Positions 1,659-9,104 of a stretch of DNA of 32,403 nucleotides are shown piece by piece (within the stretch, counting starts at the first letter, position 1; every line of letters starts with the position of its first letter). The stretch comes from a virus. Its lineage: Duplodnaviria > Heunggongvirae > Uroviricota > Caudoviricetes. A model generated the notes under the pieces. It made no database searches and was not told the origin of the DNA. It saw only the letters and a list, made by a program, of their open reading frames with translations. Location of the stretch: positions 1 to 32,403 of the IMG/VR virus record IMGVR_UViG_2617270968_000008. One strand, written 5' to 3'. A program made the position numbers and the translations under genes.

Positions 1659-4130
1659 TTAAGAATCAGCCTGACTCGGGATCAGTTTTTGCCAGATAAC
1701 TGAAACGTATTTTGCCTGGTAACGGGCGTCATCAAGTGCATTATGGCGCTCACCTTCGAATGGAATAGCCGTTCTGGCATCGAAGTCTATGGCTTTCCCC
1801 AGCTCAACGATTGTGCGTACATCGCGATCGTTGTAGTAACGCCACGGGCAGGGGATCCCCTGCCGTTCGTATGAACGGCGCAAAATCGTGTTGTCGAAGT
1901 TGGCTCCATTTCCCCAAACCTGAACAAAAAATTCACCGGAGTTTTCGTCGATAAATTCTCGCAATTGTAACAGTGCATCATCTAACGGGATTTCATCGGT
2001 CATAATGGCAGATTGCGCTTCGCGTGATTGCTTAAGCCACCATTTAATGGTGTCCCGATCAATGACTCCGCCAGCAGTTTCCAGATCGATAGTCTTACTA
2101 AATTCCGGTCCCATATCTCCGGTTTGCGGATCGAAAAATATTGCACCTATTGAGATGATCGGGGCATCAGGATTTTTTCCCATGGTTTCAAGGTCTATCA
2201 TTAGATGGTCACACGTCCTGCTGGTGGATGTGATTACGTGATGACTGTTCACCTTAATTGAGTAATTTGCCGTCTCGCCAGTTTCATTATCGCTATCGTG
2301 ATGCTGATTGCCGCCAGTGTTCTCCTTGTGTGGATGTTCAGCGCCTTCCATTTCCTCCGGATCATCTTCCTGAACTTCAACCTGATACTCTTCATCGAAT
2401 GTTTCCTGGTATGTTGCGTCGCCCATCACCGCGCCACAATCAGGGCAATTGCCGCCGCCGGTCTGACCGCAGGCGGTGCAGACTTTTTCCACTTCCTGTT
2501 GCGCCACTGGTTCAGGCTGTTTCGTTTCTGGCTCGTTTTGTAACGCATTTGGGCTGTTTTGTTCCGCTTTTTGGTAGTTCCGTTCCGATTCATGCTGGTT
2601 CTGGTTTACAGAATCGCGGGTCTGGATCCCCTTAACCCATTTCGGATCATTCGGGTCGCTAATCCCTGCAACAAATTCTCCGCGAGAGGCAGCAAGCAAC
2701 TTATCGGCGTCAGGCTGGCTGATATTGGCTGCCTGCATAATTTTGTTTACTTCGTCAGCGGTAACTTTTATCGGCTCTGGTTGTTCTGAATCTTCAGCGG
2801 TATCTACATTTTGCGGTAAGCCCGTGTATGTGCCATTTTTTCGGGCAAAATATTCTTCTTTTGTGATTTCAGTGGCGCCAGCAGCCAGTGCCTTATCCAG
2901 ACCAGAGAGTTTGTTTGCGCGACCGTATTTTTCTCCGTCCTTATCTGCGAAGAGGAAATAGAACGGCCCCTCACGCTCTACAGATGGTTCGACTTCCACT
3001 TTGCATTCGGTTTTTTCGTTGTCCGGAATTGCCGTTTCCACTGCATCAGTTTCTGGTACTGGCGACGAGAGAGTATCAGTTGCGCTCTGATTTCTTCCTT
3101 CATCTTCAAACACGCCCTTTGTAGTCAGGTATTCAGTAATGTATTTGTTCAGTGCCACAGGGTCTTTGTGAATGTCGATCGGACGTTCACGGACAAGGCC
3201 AAAAATAGTCTGGCGGTCGTAGCGAAGGGCATCAGGCTGTTTGCGCATTGATGCCGAGATACGCTTCCAGTCTTCGCGGTCGTTGTCGATAACTTCATTT
3301 TTTGCCCAGCGATGGATGCTGCCGTCAATGTTTCCGGCATCCACATCACCAGGCCAGAGAGCGTAGGCCAGTTCGTCATCCAGTGTTTTCCATGTCTGCT
3401 TGTATTCGCGATGAATGGCAGCAATGACCAGGCTGATTTTTCCTGTTGAATTTTCAGTGTGCTGTTGATTGACTCTGGCGCGGGCGAGATCAACAACAGA
3501 CGTGTATTTTCCGGTTTCCTTGCGTTCACCTTCGCGACGTTTTTTCCAGATGCGCATCTCTGCCTGAATTTCGGGCCATTTGGCACCAGGCTTACATTTA
3601 TGCTTAACCCACCCGATGGCATGCAGCTTAAGCTCCGGATACATGGCGTTAACATCTGGCATTTTCATCAACGCTTCAACGATATGTCCGTCGAATGTTG
3701 CCATGTCTTCCTGCAACAATTCCTGTGCGCTAATAACCATATCAACGGTGATGTTTTCACATGTGTCGAACTTAACCATGACAGCGTTCTGTACTTCAGG
3801 GGCCAGCTTGTCAAAAGTGACGTTCATCGGATCGGATTCAGTCTCAACCGGGACAAAGGAAGCAGACTCCTCATCCCAGCGGTTTTCCTGCATATATTCA
3901 GCATCCCAGGAATCGAGGGCAGGGCGGGGTATACCGGGTTTATCCTCGCAGACAAGAAATTTATAAGCGCAGTCCTGAGCAGCCGGATAATGTTCCAGGA
4001 ATTGCCAGTGAAATTTTGCGCGGGCGCGACGTTCATCACCGGCTTCAATGGCAGTGGCTACAGCGACGGCACCTTCTTCCTTTATTGCCTGTTCGTCCGG
4101 AATGGCGGCGCAAATAAAGACTTTACTCAT
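1659..4130 (-). CDS. Prophage exonuclease (exodeoxyribonuclease VIII-like) with C-terminal DEDD-type 3'-5' exonuclease domain
   Basis: 823-aa ORF; C-terminal about 180 aa carry DnaQ-like motifs (MIDLETMG ... HNALDDARY); acidic low-complexity middle region with a CxxC...CxxC zinc-ribbon (CTACGQ...CPDCG). Position matches the recombination/exo gene of lambdoid early-left operons. Confidence 0.7.
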   Translation of the reverse strand: MSKVFICAAIPDEQAIKEEGAVAVATAIEAGDERRARAKFHWQFLEHYPAAQDCAYKFLVCEDKPGIPRPALDSWDAEYMQENRWDEESASFVPVETESDPMNVTFDKLAPEVQNAVMVKFDTCENITVDMVISAQELLQEDMATFDGHIVEALMKMPDVNAMYPELKLHAIGWVKHKCKPGAKWPEIQAEMRIWKKRREGERKETGKYTSVVDLARARVNQQHTENSTGKISLVIAAIHREYKQTWKTLDDELAYALWPGDVDAGNIDGSIHRWAKNEVIDNDREDWKRISASMRKQPDALRYDRQTIFGLVRERPIDIHKDPVALNKYITEYLTTKGVFEDEGRNQSATDTLSSPVPETDAVETAIPDNEKTECKVEVEPSVEREGPFYFLFADKDGEKYGRANKLSGLDKALAAGATEITKEEYFARKNGTYTGLPQNVDTAEDSEQPEPIKVTADEVNKIMQAANISQPDADKLLAASRGEFVAGISDPNDPKWVKGIQTRDSVNQNQHESERNYQKAEQNSPNALQNEPETKQPEPVAQQEVEKVCTACGQTGGGNCPDCGAVMGDATYQETFDEEYQVEVQEDDPEEMEGAEHPHKENTGGNQHHDSDNETGETANYSIKVNSHHVITSTSRTCDHLMIDLETMGKNPDAPIISIGAIFFDPQTGDMGPEFSKTIDLETAGGVIDRDTIKWWLKQSREAQSAIMTDEIPLDDALLQLREFIDENSGEFFVQVWGNGANFDNTILRRSYERQGIPCPWRYYNDRDVRTIVELGKAIDFDARTAIPFEGERHNALDDARYQAKYVSVIWQKLIPSQADS

Positions 4131-4222
4131 TTTGTTTTACCTCATTACAGATTTAAGGGTGAACAAATCCCTGCCATTGCTGGCATATAAGAATGAAACC
4201 GGATATTTATTACGGAACTGTT

Positions 4223-4414
4223 TTAAAGACCTGCCGGGATTTCGTTATTATCCTGGTGAATAACTTTATCGACCGGGTAACAGTTACCGGGAATTTTCTG
4301 TTCGGTTGCTGCAGTCACACACTCCTGCATTGTCCTGTGAACACTGACTGCAATATCAACTGGCTCTCCGGAAACAAGAAAAACTGTCAGAACAAGTGCA
4401 AATGCTGTATTCAT
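4223..4414 (-). CDS. Small secreted/membrane protein (hypothetical)
   Basis: Internal start MNTAFALVLTVFLVSG gives an N-terminal signal-peptide-like hydrophobic segment; AGGA about 8 nt upstream; start ATG overlaps the stop of the upstream small ORF (ATGA). Confidence 0.35.
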   Translation of the reverse strand: MNTAFALVLTVFLVSGEPVDIAVSVHRTMQECVTAATEQKIPGNCYPVDKVIHQDNNEIPAGL

Positions 4415-4599
4415 TGCCAGCATCCTTTTTGTATCGGACGTAAACGGGCCAGCATTGAAAGAATGCATATTTTATTTAATAGCTCCCGTTCGTGTTTTCT
4501 CTTGTTAATGGCATCTTCAGTAAATACAGGGTTACTGATATTGACACCAATTTCAAAACAACCTTCAGACGTATTAACGTTTGGTAATAACGTTTCCAT
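4411..4599 (-). CDS. Hypothetical small early-left protein
   Basis: 62-aa ORF from METLLPNV with GAGGA 7 nt upstream; translationally coupled to the next small ORF; sits where lambdoid phages carry kil/gam-like host-takeover genes. Confidence 0.3.
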   Translation of the reverse strand: METLLPNVNTSEGCFEIGVNISNPVFTEDAINKRKHERELLNKICILSMLARLRPIQKGCWQ

Positions 4600-5161
4600 T
4601 ATCGCGTCCTCAACAATGAATTTTGTGATGCGGTGCCTGGTGCCTCCAGGTGACGTTAACCAGTTAACAATTAACGCCGGATACAGAGAATCCACCCATA
4701 ACACTGTTTTTGGTTTTAACTGTTCCGCGTGCGCTCAGCCGCATTCACCACATCACAAAATTCACTTTAAAAAGGGCGGCAGAGCAGTCACGGAGTAAAA
4801 CTGATACCGCCAAACGTCACCAGAAAATTGATAACAGAGGGCGTTGCAGCGGGGTTGTCACTTAAGCGTATGGTCAACCTGACAACCCGGTGTCCTCAAC
4901 GGGGGAAGGAATACCCCCGCCATACTTACCGCCGCGCCATTTCGCGGATTGCCACAACCGGAAGCGCACGGTCGACGAAAATTTAACGACAGGCTATCTA
5001 TGAACCAGCTACCTCGCCGTGCGCTTTCGCGTTATGGTCTGACTTTTCAGGGAAATATCCTTTCAGTAAACTGTCAGTGCCGGATGCTCACCCGTGTCCG
5101 GCGCACGCACTCCACCTCACCCGTGGAGAACTCCTTAATCACCAACCCTCAGGAGGGTGAA

Positions 5162-5437
5162 ATGTCGACTGAAAATGATGAAATCATTAACTCCCTGATA
5201 CGCCAGATTAATAATTTTGATAAAGCATTGCAACATGCTGCGGCGCGTAGTGATATAACTCTTTTAGCAATTTCATTTCTTGCATCTGTTATGGATAAAA
5301 ATGAAGTCGTACGACAGAGTCTTGTTGATTATATCGACTCGCTTCAACCCGGCACTTTCAATCATGAGAGCTTCAATCATGAGAAAGAGCATGTTAAGTC
5401 TGTAATTAATTCTCTTATTTTGAATCAAAAGAATTAA
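5162..5437 (+). CDS. Hypothetical protein (plus-strand gene embedded in the leftward early region)
   Basis: ATG at 5162 preceded by AGGAGGG (5151-5157); 91 aa; opposite orientation to surrounding early-left genes; preceded by a GC-rich hairpin-dense leader. Confidence 0.4.
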   Translation: MSTENDEIINSLIRQINNFDKALQHAAARSDITLLAISFLASVMDKNEVVRQSLVDYIDSLQPGTFNHESFNHEKEHVKSVINSLILNQKN

Positions 5438-5735
5438 TGCTTTTTGTTGCAAAGTAATTTTCAAGGGGTTCTATTCGAATCCCTTTCTTTTTCATTAACA
5501 AGCCAAACCCCTTATCAATGATGTCCATTAGATCCAGGAAGTATTTTTCATGTAAATCCTGGTTATCAGAGAGCTGCTTCTCTTCGTACAGCCCGATAAA
5601 GGCTCGGCGTACGTTACCGGATATATTGTCGATGGTTTCTTTTTCTACGGTACTCAGGTCAAGAGTCGCCAGTTGAGAGCGAACCACATTCGATGCCATT
5701 TCCTGGAATGGGACTGGTAAATCTTTAAATTCCAT
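5415..5735 (-). CDS. Hypothetical protein
   Basis: ORF 5415-5747; likely start MEFKDLPV at 5735 with GAGG 7 nt upstream; convergent with and overlapping the 3' end of the 5162-5437 gene. Confidence 0.4.
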   Translation of the reverse strand: MEFKDLPVPFQEMASNVVRSQLATLDLSTVEKETIDNISGNVRRAFIGLYEEKQLSDNQDLHEKYFLDLMDIIDKGFGLLMKKKGIRIEPLENYFATKSINSFDSK

Positions 5736-5746
5736 CGTCAACCTCA

Positions 5747-5980
5747 TCAGTCAGTGTTTCTGGTTAACCAGCGACGTGCGCCAGCTTCAGTTTTAAACGT
5801 TTTGCTTCTGGTATATGTCATCGCGGTAAACGTGCCGTCCTGGTTGGGAAACACGCCGCATACCAGAGATTCGTTGTTGCCAAGCTCGATAGTATCCATG
5901 CTGACCTCATTTCCCCTTAACGCCGGGGTAGCGGAACAAAAACCTGCTGCATAGTTATTAAAGTTGAACCCTGCCGTCAT
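5747..5980 (-). CDS. Hypothetical protein, first gene of the leftward early operon
   Basis: 77-aa ORF with GAGG 7 nt upstream; immediately downstream of the inferred PL promoter. Confidence 0.4.
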   Translation of the reverse strand: MTAGFNFNNYAAGFCSATPALRGNEVSMDTIELGNNESLVCGVFPNQDGTFTAMTYTRSKTFKTEAGARRWLTRNTD

Positions 5981-6080
5981 GTTCTTACGCCTCGGGCTGG
6001 CTACTTAACCCCTGACCACTGCCTGGTAACTCGAGGTATTGCCCTGTATTGTGTGGGACGGGATGGGTTGGTATGGGAAA

Positions 6081-6124
6081 ACTATAGGAAATGCCTAATT
6101 ACTTGTCAATAGGCTATGCCTAAT
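6081..6124 (-). promoter_or_regulatory. Leftward early promoter (PL-like) with embedded operator repeat
   Basis: On the minus strand: -35 TTGACA (6103-6108), 17-nt spacer, -10 TATAGT (6081-6086). The spacer holds TTAGGC/GCCTAA half-sites; 6103-6124 is the exact reverse complement of 6747-6768. Confidence 0.6.
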
Positions 6125-6217
6125 AATTTGGGCGCAACCTAATAGGTGATGGTTTGTGGGAGAGGTAGTAGGAGTTAACTAACGGGAACTAGGAATTTCC
6201 CGTCGGACCATATAAGT

Positions 6218-6694
6218 TTAAGTTCCTGTCTTGGTGATGTTCTGGCTTTTCCGTTTTGATTCTTGATTTTTCAGATAGTTAGCTACCTTCATTTCCATTG
6301 CGGCAATGTAGGCGCGAACGTCATGATCAACCCAACTAGGCTCCGTAGCATTTCCAGATAAGATGAAAGCCACAATTGCTCTTTTTTCATCAGAGGCGGC
6401 TTGATAAAGGCTGTTTATGTCTAAAAGTTCACTTTTTGTATCTGAAGTGGATGGGGTTGGTATTGGGTATTCGTTAAGCCCCCAATGCTCTGGACCAACC
6501 ACATCAGAAAAGAAACGCCATAGTTCTGGAAGTTTGTCTTTACTTATCGAACCTTTCTTAATCCAGTCATGGATTGATGGTGGTTGGACTTTGAAATGAC
6601 GTGCGATTTCCGCCTTTGATTTGACGGCTCCTGATGCAATTTTTTTGTTAATGGCCTGCTCTATCGCTCGGCCTAAGTCTTTACCACTAAGCAT
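6218..6694 (-). CDS. racR: Prophage repressor, RacR-like (HTH DNA-binding)
   Basis: 158-aa ORF with AGGAGA RBS, flanked by operator-bearing divergent promoters; followed divergently by two genes of about 107 and 141 aa, matching the racR/ydaS/ydaT layout. Symbol is from size and arrangement, not a search. Confidence 0.6.
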   Translation of the reverse strand: MLSGKDLGRAIEQAINKKIASGAVKSKAEIARHFKVQPPSIHDWIKKGSISKDKLPELWRFFSDVVGPEHWGLNEYPIPTPSTSDTKSELLDINSLYQAASDEKRAIVAFILSGNATEPSWVDHDVRAYIAAMEMKVANYLKNQESKRKSQNITKTGT

Positions 6695-6746
6695 TGCTTA
6701 ATAGTCTCCTATGCGCATCGCGTTAGGCAATCCCTACTCTCGATGT

Positions 6747-6791
6747 ATTAGGCATAGCCTATTGACAATTTCATTAGGCTAAGCCTAATAT
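6747..6791 (+). promoter_or_regulatory. Rightward early promoter (PR-like) and operators
   Basis: -35 TTGACA (6762-6767), -10 TAATAT (6786-6791); perfect palindrome ATTAGGCT-A-AGCCTAAT (6773-6789) overlaps spacer and -10; 6747-6768 is the inverted copy of the PL-side 22-mer. Confidence 0.6.
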
Positions 6792-6818
6792 TGTTGCGTG
6801 TTTTTTGGAGTTCATTCG

Positions 6819-7142
6819 ATGAAAAAAGATAACTATTCATTCAAACGAGCTTGTGCTGTTGTCGGTGGGCAATCAGCAATGGCTAGGCTTTTAGGTGTAT
6901 CTCCTCCAAGCGTAAATCAATGGATCAAAGGTGTACGTCAGTTACCTGCTGAGAGATGTCCTGCGATTGAACGAGCAACAAAAGGTGGTGTCCTGTGTGA
7001 AGAACTTCGTCCTGATGTTGATTGGACATACTTACGACGCTCGTCATGTTATTCGCAGAATATGTCGATGAAGCAACCAAATGACGAAAACGATCATACC
7101 CGAAGCATCAAGAGGCAAATGATTCATGAAAATCAAACATGA
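6819..7142 (+). CDS. ydaS: Cro/YdaS-like HTH regulator
   Basis: ATG at 6819 after a GGAG RBS; N-terminal HTH-like segment (QSAMARLLGVSPPSVNQWIKG); first gene of the rightward operon, divergent from the repressor. Confidence 0.55.
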   Translation: MKKDNYSFKRACAVVGGQSAMARLLGVSPPSVNQWIKGVRQLPAERCPAIERATKGGVLCEELRPDVDWTYLRRSSCYSQNMSMKQPNDENDHTRSIKRQMIHENQT

Positions 7143-7551
7143 GCACATCCGCATGGCGATGAATGCCTGGGCATACCCTGATGGTGAGAAAGTTCCTGCA
7201 GCTGAAATAGCCCGGACTTATTTCGAACTGGGGATGACGTTCCCTGAACTGTACGACGACAGCCATCCGGAAGCCCTAGCCCGTAATACCCAGAAAATTT
7301 TCCGTTGGCTGGATAAAGACACCCCTGATGCTGTTGAAAAAATGCAGGCTCTGTTACCGGCGATCGAAAAGGCGATGCCGCCTTTGCTGGTGGCCCGTAT
7401 GCGCAGCCACAGTTCTGAATATTACCGTGAGATCGTCGAACGGAGGGATCGGCTGGTGAAGGATGTCGATGATTTTGTTGCGTCAGCGGTTGTTTTGTAT
7501 GACCAGATGAATCGCGGCGGCCCGGCAGGGAATGCTGTGGTGATGCACTAA
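7126..7551 (+). CDS. ydaT: YdaT-like protein (toxin-like partner of YdaS)
   Basis: 141-aa ORF overlapping the ydaS-like 3' end; size and position match ydaT of Rac-type immunity regions. Confidence 0.5.
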   Translation: MKIKHEHIRMAMNAWAYPDGEKVPAAEIARTYFELGMTFPELYDDSHPEALARNTQKIFRWLDKDTPDAVEKMQALLPAIEKAMPPLLVARMRSHSSEYYREIVERRDRLVKDVDDFVASAVVLYDQMNRGGPAGNAVVMH

Positions 7552-7573
7552 AAGCACGGTGTTCGGGGGTTTT

Positions 7574-8536
7574 ATGAGCAGCAAGCTTCATGGTCTTGTC
7601 TGGGAAGGGTGCGCCTTCACCGGCATGATCTTATCCAGGGTGGCGGTTATGGCCCGTCTTGCAGACTACAGCAATGACGAGGGCGTGTCATGGCCTGCCA
7701 TTGAAACTATCCGGCGTCAGATCGGTGCAAGAAGTGAATCCACAGTGAAATCGGCTATTGCAGAACTGGCGAAAGAGGGCTGGCTGACGAAGGAAGAGCG
7801 TAAGGTCGGTGGGCGTAATGTAAGCAATATCTATCGGCTTAATGTGGAAAAACTCGAAGCAGCTGCGGCGGCGGCGCGTGAGTCATATAAACCGAAAAGA
7901 AAAATTAGCCCGGCAAAAAATGACCCGTTAACAGTTGACCCGTCAAATATTGACCCCTCAACGGTTGACCCGTCAAATTTTGATGGATCAACTGTTGATA
8001 AAAAACTGCCGATTAGGGGGGCGATGATTGACCCCGATCCGTCAGTATTAAAACCTGATCCGTCAGATAAAAGATCTTCTTGTCCGGACGCTTCGCAACC
8101 GGACCCGCAGACGGCTGAACAGGATTTTTTAACCCGACACCCTGACGCGGTTGTGTTCAGTGCGAAAAAACGCCAGTGGGGAAGTCAGGAAGATTTGGTG
8201 TGCGCACAGTGGATCTGGGGACGAATCGTGAGTCTTTACGAGCAGGCGGCCAGCGATGATGGCGAGATCACTAGACCGAAAGAACCCAACTGGACAGCAT
8301 GGGCCAATGACGTTCGCACAATGCGGATGCTGGATGGCAGAACTCACAGACAAATTTGTGAAATGTTTGGGCGTCTCCAGCGGGATTCGTTCTGGGTAAA
8401 AAACATCATGAGTCCGGCAAAACTCCGGGAAAAATGGGATGAACTGGTTATCCGCCTGGGGCGTTCGCCTGCGCAGCGTTGCGTGAATCACATTTCTGAA
8501 CCGGACACTGAAATTCCGCCGGGCTTCAGGGGGTAA
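7574..8536 (+). CDS. Replication initiation protein (O-like / YdaU-like) with internal iterons
   Basis: N-terminal winged-helix-like region (GVSWPAIETIRRQIGARSESTVKSAIAELAKEGWL); central 5-aa repeat DP(S/L)(T/N)(V/I)D encoded by the tandem DNA repeats; first big gene of the rightward operon. Alternative GTG start at 7559. Confidence 0.65.
   Translation: MSSKLHGLVWEGCAFTGMILSRVAVMARLADYSNDEGVSWPAIETIRRQIGARSESTVKSAIAELAKEGWLTKEERKVGGRNVSNIYRLNVEKLEAAAAAARESYKPKRKISPAKNDPLTVDPSNIDPSTVDPSNFDGSTVDKKLPIRGAMIDPDPSVLKPDPSDKRSSCPDASQPDPQTAEQDFLTRHPDAVVFSAKKRQWGSQEDLVCAQWIWGRIVSLYEQAASDDGEITRPKEPNWTAWANDVRTMRMLDGRTHRQICEMFGRLQRDSFWVKNIMSPAKLREKWDELVIRLGRSPAQRCVNHISEPDTEIPPGFRG
7921..8070. repeat. Iteron array (candidate replication origin) inside the initiator gene
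   Basis: Six tandem 15-bp units from 7921 (tgacccgttaacagt / tgacccgtcaaatat / tgacccctcaacggt / tgacccgtcaaattt / tgatggatcaactgt / tgataaaaaactgcc), with further TGAYCCGTCAG-like copies at about 8028-8070. Confidence 0.65.
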
Positions 8537-8576
8537 GTGTTAATTTCTGGTCATGAGGTAATTTTCAGGAGGGCTT

Positions 8577-8999
8577 GTGGCAAAAGTTTTTACACAAGAA
8601 GAGCGGGAAAAAATTAAAGGGCAGGTTGTTGAACTCGTACGCCAGAGTGGGCGCGAGACGTTACGACAACTGGAAACTAAAACTGGGGCAACAAGATATC
8701 TGATGAGCGTTCTGGCCAGAGAGCTGGTTGCCAGTGGCGATGTATACAACTCTGGTTACGGGTTATTCCCGTCTGAACAGGCGCGTAAGGACTGGCAAAA
8801 TGCCCGTAAAAAGCTCTCAAGGGCAAAGCTGAAGAAACCATCTGCGGTTGATCCGGACCTTATCTGGTCATTACCTGACGGAGAAATACGTCGCTACGAC
8901 AGGCGTCAGAACATAATCTGTCGCGAGTGCCGGAAGAGCGAAGTTATGCAGCGCATATTGTCGTTTTATCAGGGTAATTTTCAGAAGGTGCTGTTGTGA
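8577..8999 (+). CDS. Hypothetical protein downstream of the replication initiator (not DnaC/P-like)
   Basis: 140-aa ORF with GTG start after AGGAGGG; basic protein with a CRECRKS motif; occupies the helicase-loader position but is too small and lacks Walker motifs. Confidence 0.45.
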   Translation: MAKVFTQEEREKIKGQVVELVRQSGRETLRQLETKTGATRYLMSVLARELVASGDVYNSGYGLFPSEQARKDWQNARKKLSRAKLKKPSAVDPDLIWSLPDGEIRRYDRRQNIICRECRKSEVMQRILSFYQGNFQKVLL

Positions 9000-9104
9000 G
9001 CCAAATTAACAATCGGAACTTCGTGAAGAGAAAGCATAATCCAAATCTGAATAATTAAGTTTAGCACTGTAAATAAAATTTAATCCTTAACTGGAGGTAT
9101 ATCT

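What the first reader, a model, noticed from the sequence alone, without database searches (positions are those of the whole stretch)
6081..6791. Immunity region with RacR/YdaS/YdaT-like genes and a 22-bp operator element inverted on either side of the repressor gene
The repressor gene is flanked by two promoter-operator clusters in lambda-like OL/OR geometry. The 22-mer TTGTCAATAGGCTATGCCTAAT (6103-6124) is exactly reverse-complemented at 6747-6768, far beyond chance in a 32-kb window. Each copy contains the -35 TTGACA of an outward promoter (PL with -10 TATAGT; PR with -10 TAATAT). A perfect palindrome ATTAGGCT-A-AGCCTAAT overlaps the PR spacer and -10. The TTAGGC half-site recurs several times. 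In Rac-type prophages the repressor is needed to silence a toxic ydaS/ydaT pair, so this architecture predicts cooperative, possibly looping-dependent repression of both early operons.
Basis: partly seen in the sequence, partly recalled or inferred. Interest (0 to 1): 0.5.

Follow-up and report, generated by a model that had tools for sequence, protein, structure and literature searches.

The report
Rac-type prophage switch with twin operators
This is the on/off switch of a Rac-type E. coli prophage; its right-hand repressor sites are already mapped in E. coli K-12, while a matching left-hand promoter-operator, not described in the papers I could search, is conserved wherever this repressor's DNA-binding domain occurs.

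Summary
The 22-mer is in fact an exact 23-bp inverted repeat (6103-6125 / 6746-6768), with none expected by chance.

The three genes are RacR (91% identical to K-12, above NCBI's equivalog cutoff), YdaS (85%) and a YdaT of the CP-933P type (31%). The window is an E. coli prophage next to ompW.

The right-hand cluster is known biology. RacR operators with consensus (T/A)TAGGC-N3-GCCTA(T/A) and the PydaS promoter (TTGACA/TAATAT) were mapped experimentally in K-12.

The left-hand cluster, just past the racR stop, is not described in any paper I found. It is the mirror image of the right one: operator, TTGACA, operator, TATAGT. This promoter-operator cassette recurs downstream of RacR-type repressors in Escherichia, Mixta, Proteus, a Klebsiella phage and Achromobacter. 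The two sites are always 25 bp apart, and the flanking DNA is unrelated. It was present in 23 of 25 IMG/VR loci carrying the RacR DNA-binding domain. It was absent from all 40 loci that have the same C-terminal domain joined to a different DNA-binding domain.

My verdict is an ordinary lambda-style OL/PL plus OR/PR immunity cassette (6076-7117). It is a new member of a known kind and of low-to-moderate interest. DNA looping is plausible but untested.

The parts
6076..7117 (.). Immunity-specific cassette: PL/OL, racR, OR/PR and ydaS
   Evidence: Homology to an E. coli prophage with a different (LexA-family CI plus Cro) immunity stops at window 6075 and resumes at 7118. In more than 2000 E. coli genomes only roughly the first 70-86 bases of the query 5990-6830 match, so homology ends no further than 6075.
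6081..6086 (-). PL -10 hexamer TATAGT (predicted); transcription start predicted near 6074
   Evidence: Promoter scan, 11 of 12 consensus positions, 17-bp spacer. The -10 position is conserved in 30 unique PL cassettes.
6084..6098 (.). OL1, the promoter-proximal operator (ATAGGAAATGCCTAA, 2 mismatches). It lies in the PL spacer and overlaps the -10.
   Evidence: Same position as OR1 in PR. Half-sites are invariant in 34 Rac-type variants.
6104..6109 (-). PL -35 hexamer TTGACA (predicted)
   Evidence: TTGACA is conserved in 30 unique PL cassettes from several genera.
6109..6123 (.). OL2 (ATAGGCTATGCCTAA, 1 mismatch), abutting the -35. Identical to OR2.
   Evidence: The start-to-start spacing to OL1 is 25 bp, as in every relative examined.
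6103..6125 (+). Left arm of the exact 23-bp inverted repeat (OL2 plus the PL -35)
   Evidence: (I2).
6128..6142 (.). Possible OL3 (TTGGGCGCAACCTAA, 2 mismatches), 19 bp from OL2. Weak, and seen only in Escherichia-type sequences.
   Evidence: Variable among Rac-type variants and absent in other genera.
6181..6204 (-). Conserved hairpin 13 nt after the racR stop. Candidate weak terminator separating racR transcription from PL.
   Evidence: 8-bp stem in both the MFE and centroid folds. One G-C to A-T compensatory change among variants. It has no T-run and the terminator scan did not call it. The folding z-score is unremarkable.
6218..6694 (-). racR, repressor gene (158 aa)
   Evidence: NCBIfam NF049929 RacR equivalog, 246.3 bits against a cutoff of 200. 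91% identical to K-12 RacR. Annotated racR in 99.9%-identical E. coli genomes.
6687..6701 (.). Operator overlapping the racR start codon (CTAAGCATTGCTTAA, 3 mismatches)
   Evidence: Same sequence as the K-12 site that PMC9638921 describes as overlapping the racR ATG. Conserved at this position in all relatives.
6723..6737 (.). OR3 (TTAGGCAATCCCTAC, 2 mismatches)
   Evidence: It aligns with the site that abuts the -35 in non-Escherichia relatives.
6748..6762 (.). OR2 (TTAGGCATAGCCTAT, 1 mismatch), abutting the PR -35
   Evidence: RacR footprint in K-12 (PMC9638921).
6746..6768 (-). Right arm of the exact 23-bp inverted repeat (OR2 plus the PR -35)
   Evidence: (I2).
6762..6767 (+). PR (PydaS) -35 hexamer TTGACA
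   Evidence: The same hexamer was mapped by primer extension in K-12 (PMC9638921).
6774..6788 (.). OR1 (TTAGGCTAAGCCTAA, perfect dyad), in the PR spacer and overlapping the -10
   Evidence: The equivalent K-12 site is protected at the lowest RacR concentration (PMC9638921).
6786..6791 (+). PR (PydaS) -10 hexamer TAATAT
   Evidence: Replacing this hexamer abolished promoter activity in K-12 (PMC9638921).
6819..7142 (+). ydaS, Cro analogue (107 aa)
   Evidence: Pfam YdaS_toxin 3.8e-30 and P22_Cro 1e-8. 85% identical to K-12 YdaS. Its helix-turn-helix resembles that of RacR.
7119..7136 (.). Candidate YdaT box (ATGATTCATGAAAATCAA, 1 mismatch to TTGATT-N6-AATCAA) at the ydaS/ydaT junction
   Evidence: the count is not above chance. 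The position matches the CP-933P YdaT operator at the end of ydaS (PMC9986795).
7126..7551 (+). ydaT, CII analogue (141 aa), CP-933P type
   Evidence: Pfam YdaT_toxin 2.8e-10. phrog_163 'CII-like transcriptional activator' 2e-47. 31% identical to K-12 YdaT.
5747..5980 (-). First ORF of the leftward (PL) operon, DUF1391 (YdaF/YdfA-like). RefSeq annotates the shorter form, 5747-5899.
   Evidence: Pfam DUF1391 9.3e-28. Annotation in a 99.9%-identical genome.

Best explanation
The region is the immunity cassette (6076-7117) of a Rac-type lambdoid prophage. The RacR repressor gene sits between two outward-facing early promoters built to one plan: [operator]-TTGACA-[4-5 nt]-[operator]-(-10 hexamer). 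The operator is the dyad TTAGGC-N3-GCCTAA.

On the right, OR1 and OR2 cover PR (PydaS). PR drives ydaS (Cro analogue) and ydaT (CII analogue). OR3 and a site over the racR start codon cover the racR promoters.

On the left, OL1 and OL2 cover a predicted PL. PL would drive the leftward early operon: DUF1391, DicF/DicB, exonuclease, xis and int.

RacR dimers bound at each pair of sites, 25-26 bp apart, would occlude the -35 and -10 of both promoters and keep the prophage silent. This part is shown for OR in K-12. For OL it is inferred here from conservation.

RacR is an octamer in solution. Two dimers at OL and two at OR, 640 bp apart, could therefore join and loop out the racR gene, as lambda CI does. 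This is inferred and untested.

The exact 23-bp repeat exists because in Escherichia Rac-type elements the OR2-plus-(-35) unit has the same sequence as the OL2-plus-(-35) unit. These elements also carry one more OR site than other lineages.
For: Gene identities.

Repeat and site statistics.

Promoter geometry: the two promoters are the only sigma-70-like hits in 5700-7200.

OR and PR have experimental support in K-12, which has the same hexamers and half-sites. The support comprises EMSA, ChIP-qPCR, DNase I footprinting, primer extension and -10 mutagenesis (PMC5700373, PMC9638921).

OL conservation:
- The same two-site cassette with 25-bp spacing lies downstream of RacR homologues in Mixta, Proteus, Achromobacter, an unclassified MAG and Klebsiella phage KpF5.
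- Its distance from the repressor stop ranges from about 80 bp to 2.8 kb, and the flanks are unrelated.
- In the 38-kb KpF5 genome the only five sites with at most 2 mismatches are three at OR and two at the head of the leftward operon.
- The consensus of 30 unique PL cassettes is ATTAGGCnnnGCCTATTGACAnannATTAGGCnnngCCTAataT.

Co-variation: 23 of 25 IMG/VR loci whose repressor has the RacR-type N-terminal domain have both OR sites and an OL pair. The two exceptions have contigs that end within about 1 kb. None of 40 loci with the same S24 C-terminal domain joined to other N-terminal domains has either.

Footprint among 34 Rac-type variants: half-sites and hexamers are invariant, while spacers and linkers vary.

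Mosaic boundary: the left operators belong to the immunity-specific segment, because homology to a prophage of another immunity type ends at 6075, the predicted PL start.

Expression in K-12: lowering RacR raises ydaG, ydaF, kilR, ydaE, racC, recE, recT, ralA/ralR, xisR and intR by 40- to 100-fold (PMC6765115, PMC11014345, bioRxiv 10.64898/2026.09.06.749655).

RacR octamer by size-exclusion chromatography: PMC11014345.
Against: No binding, transcription-start or reporter data exist for the left cluster, either in this element or in K-12.

OL1 here is a weak match (2 mismatches), and OL3 is doubtful.

The derepression of leftward genes seen in K-12 could be partly indirect, through YdaS or YdaT.

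Three divergent genomic relatives (L013, L016, L018) show no OL pair within 5 kb. L018 has no sites at all.

The authors who found the octamer attribute it to four dimers on the four intergenic sites, which needs no loop (PMC11014345).

No antiterminator is identified that would carry PL transcripts as far as xis and int.
Confidence: 0.85

Rival explanations
1. The left cluster is a distal auxiliary operator only. It helps RacR repress PR or autoregulate racR through looping, and it does not itself contain a working promoter.
For: No transcription-start data exist for PL. The sites are close enough (640 bp) to act as a looping partner. RacR is octameric (PMC11014345).
Against: TTGACA and a -10 hexamer at a 17-bp spacing are conserved together with the operators in 30 unique cassettes from several genera. 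The match here is 11 of 12. The cassette always sits at the head of the leftward genes, even when other genes separate it from the repressor. Leftward genes are derepressed when RacR falls (PMC6765115).
Confidence: 0.06
2. The left copy is a non-functional relic of a duplication or recombination between the two sides of racR, and the exact 23-bp identity simply reflects a recent copying event.
For: The identity of OL2/-35 and OR2/-35 is specific to Escherichia Rac-type elements, which also have one extra OR unit. That suggests copying between the two sides.
Against: The OL pair exists in lineages where OL2 and OR2 differ in sequence. It is kept with invariant half-sites and 25-bp spacing amid unrelated flanks. 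It is absent whenever the DNA-binding domain is different.
Confidence: 0.03
3. The locus is chiefly a toxin-repressor (atypical toxin-antitoxin) module. RacR exists to silence the YdaS/YdaT toxins, and the flanking repeats are incidental to that.
For: Pfam names the families 'toxin'. racR is essential in K-12 unless ydaST is removed (PMC5700373, PMC5700377).
Against: YdaS and YdaT behave as Cro and CII analogues (PMC5917428, PMC8630535, PMC11879457). The same repressor domain and operators occur in a complete Klebsiella phage genome deposited as an isolated phage. They also occur fused to a LexA/CI-type S24 domain. The operators bracket the repressor gene and define a swappable immunity cassette. 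The CP-933P-type YdaT, the type found here, was reported as non-toxic (as cited in PMC9638921).
Confidence: 0.04

Closest known systems
racR-ydaS-ydaT immunity region of the K-12 Rac prophage (PMC5700373, PMC9638921, PMC11014345, PMC11879457)
   Same: RacR is 91% identical and YdaS 85% identical. The operator dyad (T/A)TAGGC-N3-GCCTA(T/A) is the same. PydaS has the same hexamers, TTGACA and TAATAT. There are four sites on the racR-ydaS side, including one over the racR ATG. K-12 carries the same left cluster; its two 23-mer copies differ by one base in the operator spacer.
   Different: YdaT is only 31% identical (CP-933P type). The prophage is next to ompW rather than at the K-12 Rac site (attL in ttcA, per PMC11014345). 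The leftward operon is of the DicF/DicB type rather than KilR/RacC. The published K-12 work covers only the racR-ydaS intergenic region; the left cluster is not mentioned.
CP-933P immunity region of E. coli O157:H7 (PaaR2-YdaS-YdaT) with PL933P and OL1-3 (PMC8630535)
   Same: The layout is the same: repressor, divergent Cro and CII analogues, and a leftward promoter whose -35 and -10 equal those of PR, with operators like those at OR. In CP-933P, PL is repressed by the repressor and by YdaS in reporter assays, and the repressor is an octamer. The YdaT type, with its box at the ydaS/ydaT junction, matches this window.
   Different: The published operator sequence is different (consensus GTTTAGTAA repeats), and the repressor is called PaaR2; I did not compare its sequence with RacR. 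A toxin-antitoxin pair is co-transcribed with the CP-933P repressor. Here the left promoter is only predicted.
Phage lambda OL/PL and OR/PR with CI octamer looping
   Same: The repressor gene lies between two outward early promoters. Each promoter is covered by adjacent dyad operators 24-26 bp apart. An additional site gives autoregulation. The cassette can be swapped between phages. Some relatives place extra genes between the repressor and OL, as lambda does with rexAB. Some relatives carry a CI-like S24 C-terminal domain.
   Different: The RacR C-terminal domain is unrelated to that of CI, and E. coli RacR has no S24 autocleavage domain. The operator is a 15-bp dyad with a 3-bp centre. The OL-OR distance is 0.64 kb rather than 2.4 kb. 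YdaS reportedly does not repress racR (PMC9638921). Looping has not been shown.
Qin prophage DicA/DicC control of the dicB operon
   Same: The leftward operon has the same content here (DUF1391/YdfA-like gene, DicF, DicB), under an immunity repressor encoded just upstream in the same orientation. This comparison rests on established knowledge of Qin and was not tested here.
   Different: The repressor family and the operators are different.

Membership tests
RacR repressor (NCBIfam NF049929, equivalog) | Whole-protein score above the curated cutoff | tested here: met
   246.3 bits against a cutoff of 200, covering residues 1-145. 91% identity to K-12 RacR over 158 aa.
RacR operator system | Inverted repeats (T/A)TAGGC-N3-GCCTA(T/A) in the racR-ydaS intergenic region overlapping PydaS (TTGACA/TAATAT), as defined in PMC9638921 | tested here: met
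   Sites at 6774 (0 mismatches), 6748 (1), 6723 (2) and 6687 (3). Promoter hexamers at 6762-6767 and 6786-6791.
RacR operator system | Binding of RacR protein to these sites | not testable with these tools
   Shown for K-12 OR by EMSA, ChIP-qPCR and footprinting (PMC5700373, PMC9638921). Not shown for this element, nor for any OL.
YdaS (Pfam PF15943) / Cro analogue | Domain match above the gathering score, encoded divergently from the repressor | tested here: met
   103.9 bits against 30. Also P22_Cro at 35.3 against 30.2. 85% identity to K-12 YdaS.
YdaT (Pfam PF06254) / CII analogue | Domain match above the gathering score, encoded immediately after ydaS | tested here: met
   40.9 bits against 21. 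phrog_163 'CII-like' at 2e-47. Only 31% identity to K-12 YdaT.
Lambdoid immunity region (OL/PL - repressor - OR/PR - cro) | Repressor operators of the same specificity on both sides of the repressor gene, each overlapping an outward promoter | tested here: met
   By sequence only. Conserved in relatives and co-varying with the DNA-binding domain.
Lambdoid immunity region (OL/PL - repressor - OR/PR - cro) | The segment is exchanged as a unit between otherwise homologous phages | tested here: met
   Homology to a prophage with a LexA-type CI ends at 6075 and resumes at 7118.
Lambda-type long-range looping switch | Repressor octamer bridging OL and OR, with a measurable effect on repression or autoregulation | not testable with these tools
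   The only evidence is the RacR octamer seen by size exclusion in K-12 (PMC11014345).
Type II toxin-antitoxin module | The toxin is neutralised by direct binding of a cognate antitoxin protein encoded in the same operon | not tested
   The literature argues against this reading (PMC5917428, PMC8630535). Nothing in the sequence requires it.

The most novel reading that the evidence does not exclude
RacR-type switches work by OL-OR looping. On this reading, the octamer seen in K-12 is two dimers on the conserved 25-bp-spaced OL pair joined to two dimers on OR1/OR2, enclosing the repressor gene in a 0.6- to 3-kb loop. It would not be four dimers lined up on the intergenic sites.

In addition, the RacR DNA-binding domain and its promoter-operator cassette form a portable unit. 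This unit has been combined with at least three different C-terminal domains (RacR-type, LexA/CI-type S24 peptidase, and a short form) across Gamma- and Betaproteobacteria.
Probability: 0.4. Interest if true: 0.4.

Novelty: new member of a known kind. Interest (0 to 1): 0.28.

Why it matters
The left promoter-operator would give a direct explanation for a published observation. When RacR is lowered in E. coli K-12, the recombination (recET), cell-division (kilR, and here dicB/DicF) and excision (xis/int) genes are switched on together with ydaS/ydaT.

It also offers an alternative, testable role for the published RacR octamer.

Finally, it gives a clean natural example of a DNA-binding domain travelling with its operators while its C-terminal partner domain is swapped.

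None of this changes the general picture of lambdoid switches.

Tried and rejected
Rfam search of 4000-9000 at E up to 1: nothing in 5990-6830, only DicF and a sub-threshold STnc100 further left.

Terminator scan of 5700-7200: none found. The hairpin after racR folds no better than shuffled sequence (z = -0.19), so I do not call it a terminator.

PDB sequence search with RacR: no meaningful hit.

Pfam and PHROGs have no model matching RacR itself; only NCBIfam does.

The dyad allowing 3 mismatches is not enriched window-wide, so site calls were limited to 2 mismatches or fewer, plus the published ATG-overlapping site.

Literature searches for a Rac OL/PL, RacR looping, RacR ChIP-exo or SELEX, and sbcA in relation to the repressor found no description of the left sites. 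The library lacks most subscription-journal papers, so older Rac work could not be checked.

Three divergent genomic relatives (L013, L016, L018) showed no OL pair even with relaxed criteria.

I considered a cruciform or recombination-site role for the 23-bp repeat. I set it aside because the arms are 620 bp apart and each arm is fully explained as an operator plus a -35 hexamer.

The large protein-database searches and structure prediction were not run, because the answer did not depend on them.

Full report
**1. The observation**

The sequence is as described. TTGTCAATAGGCTATGCCTAAT at 6103-6124 recurs as an exact reverse complement at 6747-6768. The identity extends to 23 bp, 6103-6125 against 6746-6768. 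No shuffle of the window gave a match, even with three mismatches allowed. The palindrome ATTAGGCT-A-AGCCTAAT is at 6773-6789.

- TTGACA-17-TATAGT pointing left (6109..6081, 11 of 12 consensus positions)
- TTGACA-18-TAATAT pointing right (6762..6791, 10 of 12)

I scored the dyad TTAGGC-N3-GCCTAA with at most two mismatches. The 32-kb window then has six sites, at 6084, 6109, 6128, 6723, 6748 and 6774. All six lie in two roughly 60-bp patches on either side of the repressor gene, against about one site expected. With three mismatches allowed, the window-wide count is at background.

**2. What the genes are**

- The 158-aa minus-strand protein (6218-6694) passes NCBI's RacR equivalog model (246 bits, cutoff 200). 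It is 91% identical to K-12 RacR.
- The 107-aa protein (6819-7142) matches Pfam YdaS (3.8e-30) and P22 Cro. It is 85% identical to K-12 YdaS.
- The 141-aa protein (7126-7551) matches Pfam YdaT and a PHROG annotated as CII-like. It is only 31% identical to K-12 YdaT. A 2025 paper reports about 30% identity between the two YdaT homologues it compares, from the Rac and CP-933P prophages (PMC11879457), so I read this one as the CP-933P type.

The stretch 5400-7600 is 99.9% identical to several E. coli chromosomes. There it belongs to a prophage integrated next to ompW and is annotated racR.

**3. What is already known**

The right-hand cluster is published biology for K-12 Rac.
- RacR binds the racR-ydaS intergenic region in EMSA and ChIP-qPCR, and GCCTAA/TTAGGC repeats were noted there (PMC5700373).
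- DNase I footprinting, primer extension and -10 mutagenesis defined the operators as (T/A)TAGGC-N3-GCCTA(T/A). They defined PydaS as TTGACA/TAATAT, and found a site overlapping the racR ATG. The PydaS region was protected at the lowest RacR concentration (PMC9638921).
- RacR runs as an octamer on a sizing column. The authors relate this to four intergenic inverted repeats (PMC11014345).
- YdaS and YdaT are regarded as Cro and CII analogues, and the 'toxin' label is disputed (PMC5917428, PMC8630535, PMC11879457).

The window keeps the K-12 hexamers and half-sites.

**4. The left cluster**

None of the papers I could search mentions RacR sites downstream of racR. One of them states that the RacR regulon is not characterised in detail (PMC11014345). 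K-12 nevertheless has the same left cluster: its two copies of the 23-mer differ by a single base, in the operator spacer.

The geometry mirrors PR. One dyad abuts the -35 (6109-6123). A second dyad lies in the spacer and overlaps the -10 (6084-6098).

**5. Comparative tests**

*(a) Divergent relatives.* RacR homologues of 57-78% identity were found in Mixta, Proteus, Achromobacter, an unclassified MAG and Klebsiella phage KpF5. Each has the dyad upstream of the repressor gene. Each also has a pair of dyads exactly 25 bp apart downstream of it, with unrelated flanking sequence. In the 38-kb KpF5 genome the only five sites are three at OR and two at the head of the leftward operon. There a DUF450 gene lies between the repressor and the pair.

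*(b) Wider sample with a built-in control.* I scanned IMG/VR contigs recovered with the KpF5 and Achromobacter proteins.
- 25 loci encode the RacR-type N-terminal domain. Of these, 23 have both the upstream sites and a downstream 25-bp pair, lying 76-2766 bp past the repressor gene. The other two contigs end within about 1 kb.
- 40 loci encode the same S24-peptidase C-terminal domain joined to other N-terminal domains. None has either feature.

*(c) Consensus.* Thirty unique left cassettes give ATTAGGCnnnGCCTATTGACAnannATTAGGCnnngCCTAataT. The -35 and -10 are thus conserved together with the operators, at a 17-bp spacing.

*(d) Footprint among close variants.* In 34 distinct Rac-type variants the half-sites and hexamers are invariant. 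The 3-bp centres and the linkers vary.

*(e) Mosaic boundary.* Homology to an E. coli prophage with a LexA-family CI and Cro ends at 6075 and resumes at 7118. The left operators therefore belong to the immunity-specific cassette. The breakpoint coincides with the predicted PL start. That other prophage carries its own, different dyad (GTAAC-N4-GTTAC) on both sides of its repressor.

*(f) Exceptions.* Three genomic relatives (L013, L016, L018) show no downstream pair within 5 kb. L018 has no sites at all.

**6. Mechanism**

Shown in K-12 and carried over by homology: RacR binds OR and represses PydaS, and it autoregulates racR.

Inferred here with good support: RacR also binds OL1 and OL2 and occludes a strong leftward promoter, PL. 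PL heads the operon containing DUF1391, DicF, DicB, an exonuclease, xis and int. This fits three reports that lowering RacR in K-12 raises ydaG, ydaF, kilR, ydaE, racC, recET, xisR and intR by 40- to 100-fold (PMC6765115, PMC11014345, bioRxiv 10.64898/2026.09.06.749655). An indirect route through YdaS or YdaT is not excluded.

Inferred and untested: the 25-26-bp spacing is close to lambda's 24 bp (established knowledge). Together with the octamer, it allows cooperative pairs at OL and OR to join into a loop of about 640 bp.

The helix-turn-helix regions of RacR and YdaS are locally similar: 41% identity over 29 residues. This is consistent with the published competition of the two proteins for the same operators (PMC11014345).

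**7. Why the repeat is exact here**

In non-Escherichia lineages the site next to the PR -35 is TTAGGCAATTCCTAT. That differs from the OL2 sequence (…GCCTAT), and OR has three sites, ending 53, 28 and -7 nt from the repressor ATG.

Escherichia Rac-type elements have four sites, at 80, 54, 29 and -7. The old position carries TTAGGCAATCCCTAC without a -35. The unit next to the -35 is identical or nearly identical to OL2 plus its -35.

The simplest reading is that one 25-26-bp operator unit was added, and that the PR -35 unit now has the PL sequence. This is an inference, and the direction of copying is not resolved.

**8. Comparison and novelty**

The nearest described case for the left element is CP-933P. 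There a PL with hexamers identical to PR, plus OL1-3, was identified and shown to be repressed by PaaR2 and YdaS, and the repressor is also octameric (PMC8630535). Lambda is the general model.

The window is therefore a member of the RacR immunity family, with every sequence-level membership test met. Its left promoter-operator is a previously unremarked but expected part of that family. A specialist would not be surprised.

The useful products are a concrete, testable OL/PL for Rac (K-12 included), an alternative role for the octamer, and the domain-operator co-variation.

**9. Limits**

All evidence for OL and PL is computational or borrowed from K-12 expression data. The paper library omits most subscription journals, so an older description of Rac operators cannot be excluded.

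Noticed in passing
window 4774-4825 (-) and 4567-4776 (-): DicF sRNA (Rfam RF00039, 76.7 bits, gathering score 48). Next to it is a sub-threshold STnc100-like match (38.7 bits against 47). The leftward operon is of the Qin dicB type (DicB is annotated in the identical genome), but it sits under a Rac-type immunity cassette.
   Followed up: partly
window 5990-6075: The predicted PL leader is shared at 90-94% identity with more than 2000 E. coli genomes that lack racR at that place. Its C-rich sequence is conserved across immunity types, and its function is unknown.
   Followed up: partly
window 6181-6204 (-): A hairpin 13 nt after the racR stop is kept in all 34 Rac-type variants, with one G-C to A-T compensatory change. 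It has no T-run and no better-than-shuffle folding energy, so its role (weak terminator?) is unclear.
   Followed up: partly
window 7119-7136: ATGATTCATGAAAATCAA, one mismatch from the CP-933P YdaT operator TTGATT-N6-AATCAA. It sits at the ydaS/ydaT junction, where that operator lies in CP-933P. The count of such matches in the window is not above chance.
   Followed up: partly
L015 5001-6101, L017 5001-6089, L018 4041-4718; L139-L150: Achromobacter and Aeromonas relatives fuse the RacR-type N-terminal DNA-binding domain to a Peptidase_S24 (LexA/CI-type) C-terminal domain. The Achromobacter loci keep the same operators at OR and OL. The Aeromonas locus (L018) has no sites at all. E. coli RacR has no such domain.
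   Followed up: yes
L151-L218 (IMG/VR): The same linker and S24 C-terminal domain is joined to at least four unrelated helix-turn-helix N-terminal domains, with the junction at a conserved 'PWPF' motif. This is a clear case of domain shuffling among phage repressors.
   Followed up: partly
L006 (Klebsiella phage KpF5) 29374-30528: A DUF450 gene lies between the repressor gene and OL, in the repressor's orientation. This is the position rexAB occupies in lambda, so it may be a lysogen-expressed accessory or defence gene. Several Achromobacter-type loci also have 1-2.8 kb between the repressor and OL.
   Followed up: no
L009 (JARKOR010000130.1): A 5.2-kb contig binned as 'Candidatus Nanosynbacter' carries an E. 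coli-like Rac immunity region (RacR 91% identical, with the same OR and OL sites). This is probably a binning contaminant.
   Followed up: no
L005 2590-2610 and 3400-3430: The LexA-type-immunity prophage that shares both flanks with this window has its own dyad (GTAAC-N4-GTTAC) on both sides of its repressor gene. The twin-operator layout therefore recurs with a different specificity at the same position.
   Followed up: partly
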